Below are positions 35,470 to 40,493 of a DNA stretch of 40,493 nucleotides, in pieces. The notes under the pieces are model-generated. The model saw only the letters and a list, made by a program, of their open reading frames with translations, made no database searches and had not been told where the DNA came from. Origin of the DNA: Craspedostauros australis. Taxonomy: Eukaryota. The stretch is from the NCBI GenBank assembly GCA_030167865.1, contig JALAGF010002295.1, positions 1 to 40,493 on the forward strand. Reading direction: 5' to 3'. The position numbers and the translations under genes were made by a program. The stretch's first letter is position 1, and every line of letters starts with the position of its first letter.

Positions 35470-37656
35470 TTATTGAGATGAATTCGTCTTGGCTTGCTTG
35501 CAACTTGAGGGATACTCCTCGTGCTGGTTTTTGCGCTTGCGACGCGAACATCCGCCGTGCGCTTCAGTGTCATGTGGATGCGGGTTGTTTGCAACACTGT
35601 GATCCCGGACCACCGAGTGGGAAAGTTCAATAGACTCCACAGGAGGCCCATCAATCGTATCCGGCACAGATCCACCTGGGGCTCTGTGCACAGTTGGAGC
35701 TCTCTCATCGTCGCTCATAGCATCCTCTGTCTCCTCCAATGTGTTTGATCCCGAATCGTGCGAAGATGCAGGTTCATGGTGCGTCGGCTGGATCATTGGT
35801 TCTTTCTGGATTGGGTATCCGAAACGTCCGGAACGGACTGCGTGTACGGATTCGAAATCACTTTCATGGTCACGGCTCGCCGCGTTCACTTGCGGGCAGA
35901 AGTATGGAGAAGTGAAGGGTGGTTGACGCATGCCCTGTCGAGGGGGTTCGGCCGATGCAGTGGGTGCTGACGGTGACGAAAACGGGTGATAACGACCATA
36001 CAAGTGCGGTTGAGAGAATCCCGGCTGACGCACGGGCCACATGCTTCCTCCTGTACCATCGTTGGAATATTCAAGGGGATTGCTCGCATCGAATGCATGT
36101 CGGAACCTAGGTTGGATTGCACCGTGCAACGAGACAATTGGTCGCTCCATTTGTTGTGAATCGACCATCGCGGCCGTGCCGTTTGATGCTGGAATACAAT
36201 CCATTCCGCACGGTCGCGACACCTGGGCTTGGTACGCAGTTCTGTCCAACTTGTTTCCCATGAAACCACTCCCATCGGTCTCGTGGTGACGGAGTTCGGT
36301 TGTGCCCATTTTATCCGTCCAAGTGTTGGTCAACGACGTCAATCGAGCGTCCATGGAGTGGAGCTGTTGCATCAAAGCAGATACGTCTGTGTCTGTTGCA
36401 CCATCGAACCCATTCCGCTGTGGCGCATTTGAAAAGACGGATCGGTAGATGCCGTGGAGATATAGAATTGCGACAAGCGACGCCATCAAGTTGGCGAAGA
36501 GTTGGAGCACTGGAATTCCTCCCACCTGCATTGCTGTGTGCGTTTCTAAAATGCGGTTGAAGACGGTGTGAATGACACCCAAAATGATGAGACGTTGACG
36601 CGTTGCTCGGTGCGACAGAGGCGCCGTGGCGATGATGATGACCGCAAGCCACCCAAGCATGGCGACCAATGCTTTGAGCAGGGCGATCTTGCTTCGTCCG
36701 AAGTGTTGCACCGCATCGAATAGTGAAAACCAAGGATCGACAGTATTTCTAGCCTGATGCAAGGCGCTCATAATTCCCTCAAGTTCTGCCTTTTGGGCCG
36801 CCAAGGACTGTTCCTGTTGCTCCCTCAACTCCGAATGCATCTGCTTCCATTTGGTGGTCTTGTCGGTGATTTCGGATTGGATGAGATGGACTTGAGTCGC
36901 GAGGGAGCCAGTTTGGTTTTGAACGTGTTGTGAGAAGACGCTGTGCAGGTCCATCATATGATGGTACTGCTCCCTGTGGGCGAGTTGCATTCTTTGCTGC
37001 TCGAGCTTGAGATCGTCAAGGTTGTTGCGAACCTGGCTTGATGCTTGTGCGAGCAGGTGGCTGGTGGATTCGAAATGCAGCACGGCCACCTCCTGGAGCA
37101 AGCGGGTGCAGAGTTGGTTGACGTATGAGAAAAAGTGCGTGTACGCCTGAAGGCCAGGCTCGGAAAGCAGTTTCAAGCACGTGGATGTATCTTCCGGCGT
37201 GGTCGGAACCTGCTGTGCGCACATTTCTAGGGCTTGATCTGTTCCGGTGGCCCTGTTGCCATCATAGAGCGGACGCCCAACATCGGTGAGATGGCAGCTC
37301 GCCAGGGCCAAGGCGAGCTGTTTCTGTTGATCCACCGTCATTGACAGGCACATCTGGGAGGCGTCACCCTGCGCTGGAACTGCGTTGATGGCATCAACTG
37401 CCTCCAACCAACACTGTGGTGACGACGGCAGTTGGTGGGTCGCTGGCATGATGTTATGGTCATCATTAGATTGGGGCATGCCGTGCACTGATCCATCGTG
37501 TCGGTTGCGAATGGAGTTGACGTTGCCGTTGGCGTAGTGCTGGTTGATGTGCTGGGAACCGAGCATGATGTTTCCTGCTGCTGATTGCGCAACGGCAGTG
37601 GACGGTGCATGTTGCACTGCCAGCATTGCGAAGAGAAAGGGGCATTTGAAGGCCAT
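35470..37656 (-). CDS. GEX1: GEX1/KAR5/Brambleberry-family nuclear envelope fusion protein, 728 aa
   Basis: Signal peptide; Cys-rich domain CW...C..M...QQKQLALALASCHL...GRP...C...C...L.....AYTHFF..VNQLC; coiled coil; 2-3 TM helices; long disordered tail. Confidence 0.85.
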   Translation of the reverse strand: MAFKCPFLFAMLAVQHAPSTAVAQSAAGNIMLGSQHINQHYANGNVNSIRNRHDGSVHGMPQSNDDHNIMPATHQLPSSPQCWLEAVDAINAVPAQGDASQMCLSMTVDQQKQLALALASCHLTDVGRPLYDGNRATGTDQALEMCAQQVPTTPEDTSTCLKLLSEPGLQAYTHFFSYVNQLCTRLLQEVAVLHFESTSHLLAQASSQVRNNLDDLKLEQQRMQLAHREQYHHMMDLHSVFSQHVQNQTGSLATQVHLIQSEITDKTTKWKQMHSELREQQEQSLAAQKAELEGIMSALHQARNTVDPWFSLFDAVQHFGRSKIALLKALVAMLGWLAVIIIATAPLSHRATRQRLIILGVIHTVFNRILETHTAMQVGGIPVLQLFANLMASLVAILYLHGIYRSVFSNAPQRNGFDGATDTDVSALMQQLHSMDARLTSLTNTWTDKMGTTELRHHETDGSGFMGNKLDRTAYQAQVSRPCGMDCIPASNGTAAMVDSQQMERPIVSLHGAIQPRFRHAFDASNPLEYSNDGTGGSMWPVRQPGFSQPHLYGRYHPFSSPSAPTASAEPPRQGMRQPPFTSPYFCPQVNAASRDHESDFESVHAVRSGRFGYPIQKEPMIQPTHHEPASSHDSGSNTLEETEDAMSDDERAPTVHRAPGGSVPDTIDGPPVESIELSHSVVRDHSVANNPHPHDTEAHGGCSRRKRKNQHEEYPSSCKQAKTNSSQ

Positions 37657-38459
37657 GGCGGTTGATCGATGCTTACTATCAGATGATGTGTTGTGATGTA
37701 AATAGCTGGTGTTGCTGCTACTGCTGCTGTTGTCGATGGCGATGATGAAGACGATGGTGATGACAGATGAACATTCGAAAAGAATGAGAGGAGAGGAGCT
37801 GTGATCAGAGCTGTGACTTCCAACGCCCGAAGCGTAGCTGTCGGCCGATGTGTGCTCGTCTTCTCTTCCTCTGGACTAGTAGTATGTCACCACCGCCATG
37901 CAGAACTCGTCGACCGCAGTCGTGCTCGTGCCGTGCTCAATTGAGATCCGTCAACTCATGATCAATCCATGCACCCTCGGCAGATCCATCATCGTGCCTT
38001 CATCTGTTGGCAATGCTACACACACGATTGTGATTGCAACTGCGAACATGATTATGGTGCCTATGATTACTCCACGATTGCGTCCAACACCATCTTCCGA
38101 TCTTGTTGTGTGGCGTCCAGTGCCAACAAAACCACCACAGTCTTTCCGATCGTGTTCGAGTTTCGCGCGCTTCCACAGACAATAATTTCAACCCTGATGC
38201 GGTTTAACCGTTACTTAACTGTGATTCGAAATGTTCGTCAAGCACAACGGACGGAAATTCGAAAGACAAGGTCCGACACCGAGACAAGATCCAAAACCCC
38301 CGAAACAGACAGACCACACACAAAGGTCCTCGACGCCACACATCGCTGCGGATCGAGTAGCCAGAGATGATGGTCGTAGAAGGCAAAACAGAACAATCGC
38401 GAAAACATTATCTCTCCAAACACAACCACCACATTTGCACAACTAAACTCGGACGCAAC

Positions 38460-39437
38460 ATGATGATGTCTTCTTCGTCTCGAATGGTGCTGCGGCGGTT
38501 GCAGATGCAGCATGGCGCAGCAAGCGCAAGCGCAATGAAGATGGCCATGGCGCGGCCCTTCTCCAGCACGCAGAGCGTGCTCATGGCAGCCAAATCGAAG
38601 TCCAAGAGCAATCTCATCACCAAGATCAATATCGCTGAACATGTTGCCGCCGAACACGAACTCTCCAAGGCAAAGTCGAAGCGGATTGTGGATTCCATCG
38701 TTGACTTCATGACACAAGTAAGGAACCTCAGTCAGCGCAACAAGCGCAGATGCATGGATGTATCGATGCGTGTATACGCACACACAGGCTGGTGGGAGGT
38801 GGCATATTAGAGTAGAGGTGATTCTACACTTCCAGTTCACGCACATTCGTTTCGCACGGCACGATCCATCATCTATCCATCAGAGACGGGTTGGGCTGAG
38901 TTGCATTGCATTGCACTGGGCGAGTGGATGAACATGTGATCTCATGGTAGCTCGTTCCACAGCTGTGTGCATGCGTGGTTGTGGTTGATCCATTGTATCA
39001 TCGCTTCATCGGTTGTTGGCAGCAAACAATGAGTCCTCGTACTTGACTTCGCGCGTAAATCGGATCATTGACTGGGACCGTTGTGTTGATGATCGCCCAT
39101 CAGCATGTGTCATTCCAATGACGAGATAGCGTCACCACTGTTGCTGCTTCTGCTGATGATGATACAGTCACCTTGCCACATCTTGCACTCAACAACTCAC
39201 CACTCTCTCTCTCTCTCTCTCTGCCGTTCTGTACTCACGACGCTTCTTGATCACACCAATGAAAAGACCATTGTGGATGGCGGGACTGTCAGACTCACCA
39301 AGTTCGGAAGCTTGTCTAGAAAGACATCCAAGGCGCGAATGGGCACCAACCCACAGACGATGGCCCAAATGAAGATCCCTGAGAAGCAACGGATCAAGTT
39401 CAAGGCTTCCGGCGTGTTGAAGGAGCAGGTGAACTAG
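38460..39437 (+). CDS. Bacterial-type histone-like DNA-binding protein (HU/IHF family) with a mitochondrial-type presequence; exons 38460-38717 and 39267-39437, 142 aa
   Basis: ITK..IAEHVAAEHELSKAKSKRIVDSIVDFMTQ|TIVDGGTVRLTKFGSL....SKARMGTNPQT...MKIPEKQRIKFKASGVLKEQVN follows the HU pattern. Phase-0 GT-AG intron 38718-39266. Confidence 0.9.
39203..39222. repeat. (CT)10 microsatellite near the 3' end of the HU intron
   Basis: Directly visible. Confidence 0.85.
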
Positions 39438-39834
39438 TAGGGGCGCTGCCAACAGGTATCGACTTGCTCACTTCTGTTCGTCGACAGCATGGAGGTAAAC
39501 TAAGACATCTTGACTACCACACATACATTTGGACGTTCATACGCACATACGTAAGAGTATGTCCAAACAAGGCTTTGAGTATCTGATCATGTCTTGCTAG
39601 CGGAGTGGCAGGGCATGGCCGCGACGGAGACTGCACTTGCCTTCCGAACGGCTCGATTCTCTCTAGAGAGGTTCCGTTACTATTGATAACATTGCCATTT
39701 GATAGGTAGAGCATACAGTGTCATCATGTTGGAGGATCCCCAGCTTCGTCGCTCACCCAAGGCTTCTACCATCATGTCTCTACTCGCACGGGCCATCGCT
39801 CTTGACTACGATCGTGGCCTTTCCTGACTTGAAG

Positions 39835-40249
39835 ATGCGCTTGCTTCTGTTTGCCTTGGTCTTGCAATCTTCAGCAGTCACCACTATTCACTGTTGTCGT
39901 CTATGACTGCTGCAAGGGTGGAGTTTCCCACGAGTTCTGCTGGAGTGCCACCGAGAGTGCTTGCAATGATGTCGGAGACACCTGCCGCCAAGTCGTCAGC
40001 GAGACTTCGGACGATCCTGGGGACAAAGATCAAGATGAAGATGAGGAGGAGGTTGTCGGTGGACATCAACATGTGGTTTGGCACAACAAGAGAGCGGTGT
40101 CTGTGTCTTCCACAGCACCAAGCTCGATCTTGCCATGGAAAGATGGTGTTGGGATTCTTGCTCCTGCTTTTGCTTGCCTTTGGACCAACAGGAGTTCCAA
40201 AGTTGTGATTCAAGTGAGGAGTGGGCACGAAAGCCGTGCCGCATGTTGA
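39835..40249 (+). pseudogene. Probable decayed secreted-protein gene relic
   Basis: Signal-peptide-like MRLLLFALVLQSSAVTT at 39835 is frameshifted relative to ORF 39851..40249, which is His/Cys-rich and Tyr-poor. No TpA occurs from 39904 to 40269. Confidence 0.35.
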
Positions 40250-40493
40250 GTCAAGCACCCTGATGATCTTAGATCAGACTGAGTGAGAAAGAACGCTTCA
40301 TCATCATGTTCCAAGTACGAAGACACGCCACTCGTATCCAAAAGCGAGGACACAAACACGCAAACGATTGGCCACAGAACACGATCGGCACAATCCGAAG
40401 AGATGATGATGGATGAACGTTCGTTGCTTTGATTCTTTCATTCCGCAACAAGACGACATGGGCACTAATGTTCCTTGCTTGCTCCAGACAATC

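What the first reader, a model, noticed from the sequence alone, without database searches (positions are those of the whole stretch)
38460..39437. Nucleus-encoded bacterial HU protein apparently targeted to mitochondria
Seen: an HU fold is preceded by about 45 aa rich in Arg/Ser/Met/Ala with no acidic residues, no hydrophobic signal peptide, and an R-x-F-S-S cleavage-like motif (ARPFSS). The canonical GRNP arm is GTNP. Established: eukaryotic HU homologues are best known from plastid/apicoplast nucleoids and dinoflagellates, while animal and fungal mtDNA is packaged by HMG-box TFAM/Abf2. Diatom plastid import needs a signal peptide, which is absent here. Inference: diatom mitochondrial nucleoids may be organised by HU, either retained from the endosymbiont or acquired laterally.
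Basis: partly seen in the sequence, partly recalled or inferred. Interest (0 to 1): 0.7.

Follow-up and report, generated by a model that had tools for sequence, protein, structure and literature searches.

The report
Diatom nuclear HU gene, likely mitochondrial
A diatom nuclear gene with one intron encodes a bacterial-type DNA-bending protein (HU) behind a leader that looks like a mitochondrial import signal, so it may package mitochondrial DNA, though its location in the cell has not been shown.

Summary
Two exons (38460-38717 and 39267-39437), split by a 549-nt GT..AG intron, encode a 142-aa protein. It is identical to a transcriptome peptide that its source labels 'Craspedosta...', and a public contig carries the spliced junction. 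Residues 54-142 are a full HU/IHF domain (Pfam PF00216, 84.9 bits against a cut-off of 22.4). The predicted fold is HU, and the homodimer model passes its controls. The first 50 residues have no Asp or Glu and no signal-peptide-like hydrophobic core. They carry R32-P-F-S, a motif of the kind cut by the mitochondrial processing peptidase.

The mitochondrial reading is plausible but not shown. At least 42 relative clusters carry similar leaders, and the R-x-F-S-S motif aligns in 7 of 8 relatives examined. Against it:
- the relatives have no organism names;
- the window protein falls just outside their clade in both trees (joining it is not rejected, AU p 0.22);
- a test for an amphipathic helix was not significant;
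- the transcript start is unmapped;
- diatoms often send one gene's product to both plastid and mitochondrion.

The bacterial origin is unresolved. A mitochondrial HU was shown in Acanthamoeba in 2026, so this is a new member of a known kind. My ten literature searches found no description for diatoms.

The parts
38367..38459 (+). In-frame upstream stretch that could add 31 residues (MMVVEGKTEQ...) if transcription starts further upstream. It follows a TAG at 38358-38360.
   Evidence: ORF 38367..38810; sequence read. It is not hydrophobic: adding it leaves the highest 9-residue hydropathy at 0.91. It is absent from the database peptide P0003.
38460..38717 (+). Exon 1, 86 codons: the leader (residues 1-50) and the first part of the HU domain (helices 1-2).
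   Evidence: Translation. PF00216 profile positions 2-34 lie at residues 54-86. Identical to residues 1-86 of P0003.
38460..38561 (+). Putative mitochondrial presequence, residues 1-34 (MMMSSSSRMVLRRLQMQHGAASASAMKMAMARPF), pI 12.0, no D or E.
   Evidence: Composition and hydropathy; charge; pLDDT 54-65 and no secondary structure. That it is cleaved is inferred.
38550..38567 (+). ARPFSS, residues 31-36. It fits R-x-F followed by S, which I recall as the R-3 type of mitochondrial processing peptidase site.
   Evidence: Sequence. The same columns read R-x-F/I/L-S/H/F-S/T/A in 7 of 8 relatives with a leader; the eighth has Q in place of R.
38619..38717 (+). N-terminal half of the HU domain (residues 54-86). 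This is the part most like the relatives that carry leaders.
   Evidence: Of the 20 best-scoring rows for residues 51-86, 16 belong to the 42-row clade of leader-bearing relatives, which makes up 42 of 217 rows.
38718..39266 (+). Spliceosomal intron, 549 nt, GT..AG, phase 0, with a CT-rich tract before the acceptor.
   Evidence: A contig of run X1 skips exactly 38718-39266. The two exons abut on the Pfam profile.
39267..39437 (+). Exon 2, 56 codons plus TAG: the beta-sheet and DNA-binding arm of the HU domain and the C-terminal helix.
   Evidence: Translation; PF00216 profile positions 36-90, E 3e-15.
39342..39353 (+). GTNP, residues 112-115, at the arm. N114 and P115 are conserved, and Thr stands where Arg is usual.
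   Evidence: N114, P115 and R110 are nearly invariant in alignment A1. T at this position occurs in 8 of 218 rows.

Best explanation
This is an expressed nuclear gene of a raphid diatom. The source label reads 'Craspedosta...', which I take to be Craspedostauros. It encodes a 142-aa precursor of an HU/IHF-family DNA-architectural protein.

Shown or computed here: the gene model and its splice; the HU domain and predicted HU fold; a predicted symmetric homodimer; and a basic, acid-free leader of about 50 residues with no signal-peptide core.

Inferred:
- The leader is a mitochondrial presequence.
- The precursor is imported into the matrix and cut near R32-P-F/S35. This would leave a basic mature protein of about 108 residues (pI 10.4).
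- Like bacterial HU, the mature protein dimerises through helices 1-2. It clamps and bends DNA with two beta-arms whose conserved proline (P115) wedges into the minor groove.
- It thereby compacts mitochondrial DNA without sequence preference, the role TFAM/Abf2 plays in animals and fungi.
For: Gene and expression:
- The spliced product is identical to transcriptome peptide P0003.
- A contig joins 38717 to 39267 across a GT..AG intron.
- Exon G+C is 0.53, against 0.54 for the whole window.

HU identity:
- PF00216 scores 84.9 bits against a cut-off of 22.4, over residues 54-142.
- AlphaFold2 gives pLDDT above 94 for residues 51-142.
- Foldseek finds HU structures, for example 3rhi_A (target TM-score 0.89, rmsd 1.3 A) and the Anabaena HU-DNA complex 1p71.
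- R110, N114 and P115 are conserved.

Homodimer: score 0.78, best of 3 controls 0.00. The mark was reached by 20 of 30 proteins solved as pairs of one chain and by 1 of 23 solved as single chains. The runs agree in at least 96% of contacts, and the partner's pLDDT is at least 88. HU dimers are solved, so this pass may come from memory and shows likeness only.

Leader:
- It has no D or E and 8 R+K in 50 residues. Its highest 9-residue hydropathy is 0.91, against 2.37 for the neighbouring gene's signal-peptide-like start.
- The in-frame upstream extension adds no hydrophobic core.
- R32-P-F-S aligns with the same motif in 7 of 8 leader-bearing relatives.

Relatives, of the 42 rows in the related clade:
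- 38 have an extension of 20 residues or more.
- 27 have an acid-free, basic first 20 residues.
- 20 carry R-x-[FYLI]-[SATH].
- 5 have a hydrophobic stretch.

Plastid import in diatoms needs a signal peptide followed by an aromatic residue (passages of PMC4494062).

Precedent: Acanthamoeba HupA binds DNA and co-localises with mtDNA (passages of PMC13632651).
Against: - No localisation data exist for this protein or, in the library I could search, for any diatom HU.
- No dedicated predictor (TargetP, MitoFates, HECTAR, SignalP, ASAFind) could be run. My hydropathy and charge rules are crude.
- The largest helical hydrophobic moment of the leader is ordinary: 30% of 2000 shuffles reach it. AlphaFold2 predicts no helix there.
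Some could come from algae with primary plastids, where such leaders would be chloroplast transit peptides.
- Of the 38 relatives with an extension, 11 fail my presequence rule and 5 have a hydrophobic stretch.
- In both trees the window protein lies outside the 42-row clade. It pairs with P0079, an unnamed 91-aa protein with no leader, at support 97/88.
- The 5' end of the transcript is unmapped. One of the 24 upstream ATG frames (37898) has a hydrophobic stretch.
- Diatoms dual-target 17 of 20 aminoacyl-tRNA synthetases to plastid and mitochondrion.
Confidence: 0.58

Rival explanations
1. The protein serves the plastid, alone or together with the mitochondrion. A longer isoform from an unmapped upstream start or exon would supply a signal peptide, or the leader would be ambiguous. 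The protein would then package plastid DNA, as HU does in apicoplasts and in red-lineage plastids.
For: Eukaryotic HU proteins are described as mainly a plastid clade, often with signal peptides, that spread to stramenopiles (passage of PMC5499826). Diatoms dual-target 17 of 20 aminoacyl-tRNA synthetases, typically with a signal-peptide isoform plus a presequence starting at a downstream Met. This leader has eight Met residues before residue 31. The transcript start is unmapped. One upstream frame (37898, MQNSSTAVVLVPCSIEI) has a 9-residue hydropathy of 2.53. From recall, untested here: diatom plastid genomes carry no HU gene, so a nuclear one would be expected for the plastid.
Against: There is no signal-peptide-like core in the 142-aa protein or in its 31-residue in-frame extension: highest 9-residue hydropathy 0.91. 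The database peptide starts at the Met of 38460. No aromatic residue follows an A-x-A site directly; F34 lies three residues after A29-M30-A31. Cyanobacterial Anabaena HU ranks only 20th of 25 solved relatives by sequence. An unnamed relative whose leader I read as chloroplast-type (P0102) lies outside the leader-bearing clade.
Confidence: 0.22
2. The protein is a nuclear or cytosolic DNA- or RNA-binding protein, in the manner of the dinoflagellate histone-like proteins, and the leader is only a basic disordered tail.
For: HU-family proteins were recruited to nuclear chromatin in dinoflagellates (passage of PMC5499826). The leader is disordered in the model and shows no significant amphipathic signal.
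Against: The leader resembles those of many relatives and shares an aligned R-x-F-S-S motif with them. Such a motif has no known role in nuclear proteins. I saw no classical nuclear localisation signal beyond KSKSKS. This is my own reading of the sequence.
Confidence: 0.08
3. The gene is bacterial contamination, a very recent unexpressed transfer, or a chance frame.
For: The family is overwhelmingly bacterial. Of 5644 library hits, only 54 reach E 1e-10.
Against: A spliceosomal GT..AG intron is removed in a public contig. Base composition matches the window. The gene sits among intron-bearing eukaryotic genes. The best prokaryotic matches to the leaderless relative used as probe (P0016) are at most 44% identical. 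The Pfam E-value is 4.6e-24.
Confidence: 0.01

Closest known systems
Acanthamoeba castellanii mitochondrial HupA (AcHupA; PMC13632651, passages read)
   Same: Both are nucleus-encoded HU-family proteins proposed to replace a TFAM-like packager of mitochondrial DNA. AcHupA keeps the DNA-binding arginines, shifts DNA in EMSA and co-localises with mtDNA.
   Different: AcHupA is described as a recent transfer confined to Acanthamoeba. The diatom protein belongs to, or sits next to, a diverse set of at least 42 clusters at 50% identity. Orthology was not tested because I had no AcHupA sequence. The location of the diatom protein is only predicted.
Apicoplast HU of Plasmodium and Toxoplasma (PfHU abstract, PMC2528193, in the listing; the Toxoplasma paper seen only as a reference)
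   Same: A nucleus-encoded HU of a red-lineage secondary alga relative, imported into a DNA-bearing organelle to organise its genome.
   Different: Those proteins go to a complex plastid through a signal-peptide-led bipartite leader. This one has no signal-peptide core.
Plastid-encoded HU-like proteins of red algae and cryptomonads (Kobayashi 2002; Grasser 1997, hlpA; seen only as references)
   Same: The same protein family and an organelle-nucleoid role.
   Different: Those are encoded in the plastid genome with no leader. This one is nuclear, has an intron and carries a leader.
Bacterial HU and IHF (solved examples: 1b8z, best sequence match at E 1.3e-10; Anabaena HU-DNA 1p71; IHF-DNA 1ihf)
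   Same: The fold, the predicted dimer, the conserved arm proline and the basic arm residues.
   Different: It is not an equivalog of any curated bacterial subfamily. The best NCBIfam model is IHF-alpha at 68.2 bits against a cut-off of 111, and HU-beta scores 50.4 against 157. It also has Thr in place of the usual Arg before N-P, Met in place of Gly after Q-T, and a eukaryotic leader and intron.
TFAM/Abf2 HMG-box packagers of animal and fungal mtDNA (review PMC7463775, passage)
   Same: The proposed job: bending and compacting mtDNA without sequence preference.
   Different: The fold and ancestry are unrelated. [quoted passage not shown]

Membership tests
HU/IHF family (Pfam PF00216, Bac_DNA_binding) | Profile match over the whole domain, above the curated cut-off | tested here: met
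   84.9 bits against 22.4, E 4.6e-24; residues 54-142 match profile positions 2-90.
HU/IHF family (Pfam PF00216, Bac_DNA_binding) | HU fold: two helices, a beta-sheet with an extended arm, and a C-terminal helix | tested here: met
   The AlphaFold2 model has helices 55-66 and 70-89, strands 93-133 and helix 135-141, with pLDDT above 94. Foldseek finds HU and IHF structures with target TM-scores up to 0.91. This is a predicted structure, not a solved one.
HU/IHF family (Pfam PF00216, Bac_DNA_binding) | Conserved arm residues, including the intercalating proline and the basic residues | tested here: met
   R110, N114 and P115 are nearly invariant in A1. Position 113 is Thr rather than Arg, as in 8 of 218 rows. 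The solved HU 1b8z has Val there.
HU/IHF family (Pfam PF00216, Bac_DNA_binding) | Dimer formed through the helical body | tested here: met
   Homodimer model: score 0.78, best control 0.00. The mark was reached by 20 of 30 proteins solved as pairs of one chain and by 1 of 23 solved as single chains. Contacts agree in at least 96%, and pLDDT is at least 88. The pass may come from memory of solved HU dimers.
HU/IHF family (Pfam PF00216, Bac_DNA_binding) | Binds and bends DNA | not testable with these tools
   Needs EMSA or ChIP.
Curated bacterial subfamilies (IHF-alpha, IHF-beta, HU-alpha, HU-beta; NCBIfam equivalogs) | Score above the equivalog cut-off | tested here: not met
   IHF-alpha 68.2 against 111; IHF-beta 50.0 against 115; HU-beta 50.4 against 157; HU-alpha 34.5 against 162. 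The name 'HU' is therefore a family-level label.
Proteins with a cleavable mitochondrial presequence | N-terminal extension beyond the bacterial domain, positively charged and without acidic residues | tested here: met
   50 residues, 8 R+K, no D or E; pI 12.0 for residues 1-34.
Proteins with a cleavable mitochondrial presequence | Amphipathic helix | tested here: inconclusive
   The largest hydrophobic moment is 1.45, against a shuffle mean of 1.31; 30% of 2000 shuffles reach it. AlphaFold2 predicts no helix.
Proteins with a cleavable mitochondrial presequence | Processing-peptidase motif with Arg at -2 or -3 (the motif definition is recalled) | tested here: met
   R32-P-F34 followed by S35. 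The same columns hold the motif in 7 of 8 leader-bearing relatives and in 20 of 38 clade members with an extension.
Proteins with a cleavable mitochondrial presequence | Import into mitochondria | not testable with these tools
   Needs GFP fusion or fractionation. Dedicated predictors were not available.
Diatom plastid stromal proteins (bipartite signal, ASAFAP-type) | ER signal peptide with a hydrophobic core | tested here: not met
   The highest 9-residue hydropathy is 0.91, also with the 31-residue upstream extension, against 2.37 for the neighbouring gene's N-terminus. This is a crude index; SignalP was not run.
Diatom plastid stromal proteins (bipartite signal, ASAFAP-type) | Aromatic residue or Leu at +1 of the signal-peptide cleavage site (rule from passages of PMC4494062) | tested here: not met
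   There is no signal peptide to be cleaved. After the A-x-A sites come M26 or R32. F34 is at +3.
Plastid-type eukaryotic HU clade of cyanobacterial origin (PMC5499826) | Groups with cyanobacterial and plastid HU | tested here: inconclusive
   Anabaena HU ranks 20th of 25 solved relatives. None of the 80 named prokaryotic loci is cyanobacterial or alphaproteobacterial by its title, but they were picked with patterns from a single relative. No named plastid HU was on hand.

The most novel reading that the evidence does not exclude
A large, old family of nucleus-encoded HU/IHF proteins with mitochondrial presequences is the main packager of mitochondrial DNA in diatoms and many other non-opisthokont eukaryotes. 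It would descend from the IHF/HU of the proto-mitochondrial endosymbiont. In that case the replacement by HMG-box proteins (TFAM/Abf2) would be a lineage-specific event and not a feature of the first mitochondria.
Probability: 0.12. Interest if true: 0.85.

Novelty: new member of a known kind. Interest (0 to 1): 0.5.

Why it matters
It is unknown what packages mitochondrial DNA outside animals, fungi, plants and a few protists. The textbook account holds that the endosymbiont's HU-type protein was replaced by host HMG-box proteins (PMC7463775). A mitochondrial HU in diatoms, a major group of marine primary producers, would be the second such case after Acanthamoeba. Together with the many relatives that carry similar leaders, it would suggest that mitochondrial HU is widespread and not a curiosity. 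The question can be tested directly by GFP fusions in Phaeodactylum, which can be transformed. It also raises the question of what packages diatom plastid DNA.

Tried and rejected
- Whole genome of the window: none is held. I could not look for a second HU gene in this organism.
The profile search of the named collection returned 19 proteins, and only the window's own carried an organism label.
- ESM Atlas: busy at first. The repeat gave only generic bacterial HU clusters with scores of 0.78 or less.
I then probed with the single leaderless relative P0016, which gave 80 named prokaryotic loci at no more than 44% identity.
- Control genomes of the genome search were named, but their sequences were not given.
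- P0079, the tree sister: the metagenome scan found one weak locus at 39% identity. Its origin stays unknown.
- RNA runs: no RNA holder listed. The region upstream of 38469 has no cover in run X1, which says nothing about the transcript start.
- Hydrophobic-moment test of the leader: not significant.
- Supplements: those of PMC5499826 could not be read. They may list stramenopile HU proteins and their signals. The held supplement of the Thalassiosira organelle proteome (PMC6683858) has 0 occurrences of five HU-related terms. That is no evidence either way, because its annotation wording is unknown.
- PMC5462543 (main text) holds none of four HU-related terms.
- Earlier findings of this scan: nothing relevant.
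- Rejected readings: the antisense ORF 38238-38846 as a gene, because the splice sites read GT..AG on the + strand; and the retained-intron ORF 39105-39437 as a plastid isoform, because it holds only half of the HU domain.
Full report
**What is in the sequence**

On the + strand an ATG at 38460 opens a frame of 86 codons that ends at a GTAAGG donor (38718). A second frame of 56 codons runs from 39267, just after an AG acceptor preceded by a CT-rich tract, to a TAG at 39435-39437. The two translations match Pfam PF00216 at profile positions 2-34 and 36-90, so they abut on the profile.

A word-index search with exon 1 returned a 142-aa peptide, P0003, from the eukprot/MMETSP collection. Its source labels it 'Craspedosta...'. 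It equals exon 1 plus exon 2 letter for letter. I take the organism to be the raphid diatom Craspedostauros; the full name is my recall. I used P0003 as the full-length query throughout.

Contigs of one public run (X1, whose kind is only guessed to be RNA) were laid on 36500-40493. One contig of 387 nt joins 38717 to 39267 and skips exactly 549 nt with GT..AG ends. A second contig of 465 nt runs from inside the intron across the acceptor, 38817-39281. So the spliced form exists, and an intron-bearing form exists too. Contig depths (509.8 and 27) cannot rank the two forms. Exon G+C (0.53) matches the window (0.54). No whole genome is held for this window.

**The protein**

- The full-length protein scores 84.9 bits on PF00216 against a cut-off of 22.4 (E 4.6e-24), over residues 54-142.
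- AlphaFold2, run with an alignment of 46 relatives, gives pLDDT above 94 for residues 51-142. Its secondary structure is HU-like: helices 55-66 and 70-89, strands 93-133 and helix 135-141. Residues 1-50 score 54-65 with no secondary structure.
- Foldseek against the PDB returns HU and IHF structures. Examples are Bacillus anthracis HU 3rhi_A (target TM-score 0.89, rmsd 1.3 A) and the Anabaena HU-DNA complex 1p71.
- By sequence the best solved relative is 1b8z (E 1.3e-10).
- Among NCBIfam models the best is IHF-alpha (68.2 bits, cut-off 111), ahead of HU-beta (50.4, cut-off 157). None reaches its cut-off. All 46 aligned relatives behave alike. 'HU' is therefore a family-level name.
- R110, N114 and P115 are nearly invariant among relatives.
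The residue before N-P is R in 167 of 218 rows examined, T in 8, and V or I in 23. The solved 1b8z has Val there. This Thr gives no reason to doubt DNA binding.
- A homodimer model of residues 51-142 passed. The score was 0.78 and the best of 3 controls 0.00. The mark was reached by 20 of 30 proteins solved as pairs of one chain and by 1 of 23 solved as single chains. The runs agree in at least 96% of contacts, and the partner's pLDDT is at least 88. HU dimers are solved, so the pass may come from memory. It shows likeness, not binding.

**The leader**

The first 50 residues are S12 M9 A8 R4 K4 with no Asp or Glu. The first acidic residue is E60 (read). Residues 1-34 have a pI of 12.0, and a mature form of residues 35-142 would have a pI of 10.4.

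The highest 9-residue Kyte-Doolittle mean in the leader is 0.91. On the same index, the N-terminus of the neighbouring gene (35470-37656, minus strand, MAFKCPFLFAMLAVQ...) scores 2.37, and the frame inside the retained intron scores 3.46. By this crude index there is no signal-peptide core.

ARPFSS (residues 31-36) fits R-x-F followed by S, which I recall as the R-3 type of processing-peptidase site.

Two results do not help the mitochondrial reading. The largest helical hydrophobic moment of the leader is reached by 30% of 2000 shuffles. AlphaFold2 predicts no helix there.

**The 5' end**

An in-frame ATG at 38367, just after a TAG at 38358, could add 31 residues (MMVVEGKTEQSRKHYLSKHNHHICTTKLGRN). 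These include two Glu and no hydrophobic core. The database peptide starts at the Met of 38460.

Of the 24 ATG-led frames between 37657 and 38459, only the one at 37898 (MQNSSTAVVLVPCSIEI, 2.53) has a 9-residue hydropathy above 2.0. No transcript evidence links it to this gene. The public contigs do not cover the region. An upstream exon therefore cannot be excluded, but nothing points to one.

**Relatives**

A full HMMER pass over 1.84 billion representatives gave 5644 hits at E 0.001 or better, but only 54 at 1e-10 or better. The best non-self single-domain relatives are 37-44% identical, so the protein is divergent.

Many of the best hits are 114-220 aa long and carry leaders such as MLRSFSLLRSTGSRL... 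or MLLSRSSSVLLRSRS.... Of 135 unnamed single-domain rows, 34 have an extension of 20 residues or more whose first 20 residues lack D and E and hold at least two R or K. In a 10-sequence alignment, the motif columns read R-x-F/I/L-S/H/F-S/T/A in 7 of 8 leader-bearing relatives; the eighth has Q where the others have R.

**Trees**

I built a FastTree of 218 HU domains: 135 unnamed proteins and 83 named prokaryotic loci. I left out proteins with more than one HU stretch or with under 70 profile positions, and also P0001, P0002, P0004 and P0005.

I then built a careful IQ-TREE of 98 rows, made of the 80-tip FastTree neighbourhood plus 18 of the 83 named loci drawn at random. This left out 120 rows. 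In it, 42 leader-type rows fall on one side of a branch (support 81/86, not starred).

The window protein does not fall inside that set. It sits in an unresolved polytomy next to it and pairs (97/88) with P0079, an unnamed 91-aa protein with no leader and a long branch. Holding the window protein together with the 42 costs 16.7 log-likelihood units (p-AU 0.224), so the join is not rejected. I named the group after seeing the tree, so this p-value is only indicative.

Split by halves, residues 51-86 find 16 of their 20 best-scoring rows among the 42, which are 42 of 217 rows. The more generic arm half, residues 87-142, finds only 3 of 20, though its single best row is a clade member, P0010. I read this as probable but unproven membership.

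Within the 42:
- 38 have an extension of 20 residues or more.
- 35 of those start with Met.
- 27 pass my presequence rule.
- 20 carry R-x-[FYLI]-[SATH].
- 5 have a stretch with hydropathy of 2.0 or more.
- 11 of the 38 fail the rule, several because the called start lies far upstream.

**Limits of the comparative argument**

The relatives have no organism names. Some relatives may come from algae with primary plastids, where such leaders would be chloroplast transit peptides. For the diatom gene itself, the argument rests on the rule that stromal import needs a signal peptide followed by an aromatic residue (passages of PMC4494062; abstract of PMC4329603 in the listing).

**Origin**

I probed prokaryotic genomes with patterns from P0016, a leaderless member of the clade. 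This returned 80 loci at no more than 44% identity, from Acidobacteriota, Nitrospirota, Planctomycetia, Zeta- and Gammaproteobacteria and others. None is alphaproteobacterial or cyanobacterial by its title. The choice of loci is biased by the patterns.

In the careful tree, 17 of the 18 named rows form their own starred clade, away from the leader-type set. Cyanobacterial Anabaena HU ranks 20th of 25 solved relatives. The origin is unresolved.

**Literature**

I ran ten full-text searches (one search failed on a term that was too short). None found a description of a diatom HU or of its location.

- Passages of PMC5499826 describe eukaryotic HU as mainly a plastid clade, often with signal peptides, passed on to alveolates and stramenopiles, plus sporadic transfers that include Acanthamoeba. 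Its supplement could not be read.
- A passage of the review PMC7463775 states the accepted view that the endosymbiont's packager was replaced by an HMG-box protein, in contrast to chloroplasts.
- Passages of PMC13632651 (2026) report AcHupA, a horizontally acquired HU in the Acanthamoeba mitochondrial proteome. It shifts DNA in EMSA and co-localises with mtDNA.
- Passages of PMC4494062 show that diatoms send 17 of 20 aminoacyl-tRNA synthetases to both plastid and mitochondrion. Typically they use a signal-peptide isoform plus a presequence starting at a downstream Met. This is the main reason to keep a dual-targeting rival.

**Verdict**

The most likely reading, at about 0.58, is a nucleus-encoded HU/IHF-family protein imported into mitochondria. 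There it would be cut near F34/S35 and, as a homodimer, would bend and compact mitochondrial DNA. Plastid or dual targeting is about 0.22, a nuclear or other role about 0.08, and an artefact about 0.01.

Because a mitochondrial HU is now documented in Acanthamoeba, this is a new member of a known kind. The wider point is that many clusters of leader-bearing HU/IHF relatives exist and appear undescribed in the searched literature. That point is worth a proper survey with named taxa.

Noticed in passing
window 39105-39437 (+): A frame inside the retained intron (MCHSNDEIASPLLLLLLMMIQ..., 9-residue hydropathy 3.46) runs into exon 2. It matches a second transcriptome peptide, P0005 (110 aa, one residue different, called 'complete' by its source). 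It carries only the arm half of the HU domain. It is most likely a by-product of an unspliced transcript, and its hydrophobic start comes from a CTG-rich stretch.
   Followed up: partly
window 38817-39281: The intron-bearing public contig differs from the window at 39153 (C>T) and 39162 (A>C). The spliced contig shows no difference over 387 nt. This is probably allelic or strain variation in the intron.
   Followed up: no
window 35470-37656 (-): The neighbouring gene is a single 728-codon frame, head-to-head with the HU gene about 800 bp away. It has a signal-peptide-like start (MAFKCPFLFAMLAVQ, hydropathy 2.37) and Gln/His-rich low-complexity stretches. Its function was not examined.
   Followed up: no
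window 37704-37756 and 39194-39230: Two simple repeats were flagged by the read-laying tool: a CTG/CAG-type run in the shared upstream region, and the CT run that forms the polypyrimidine tract of the intron.
   Followed up: no
proteins P0006-P0009: The best non-self hits by score are 460-604-aa proteins with N-terminal membrane helices and three or four HU-like stretches. I do not know this architecture, and their origin is unknown.
   Followed up: no
protein P0079: An unnamed 91-aa HU with no leader, rich in Lys, Ile and Ser, is the starred tree sister of the window protein. It shares N-P-x-T-M at the arm tip. A metagenome scan found no close relative, so its source could not be identified.
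   Followed up: partly
window 37898-38185 (+): An upstream ATG frame of 95 codons has a moderately hydrophobic start. It is the only candidate of 24 upstream frames for a signal-peptide exon. No transcript evidence exists for it.
   Followed up: partly
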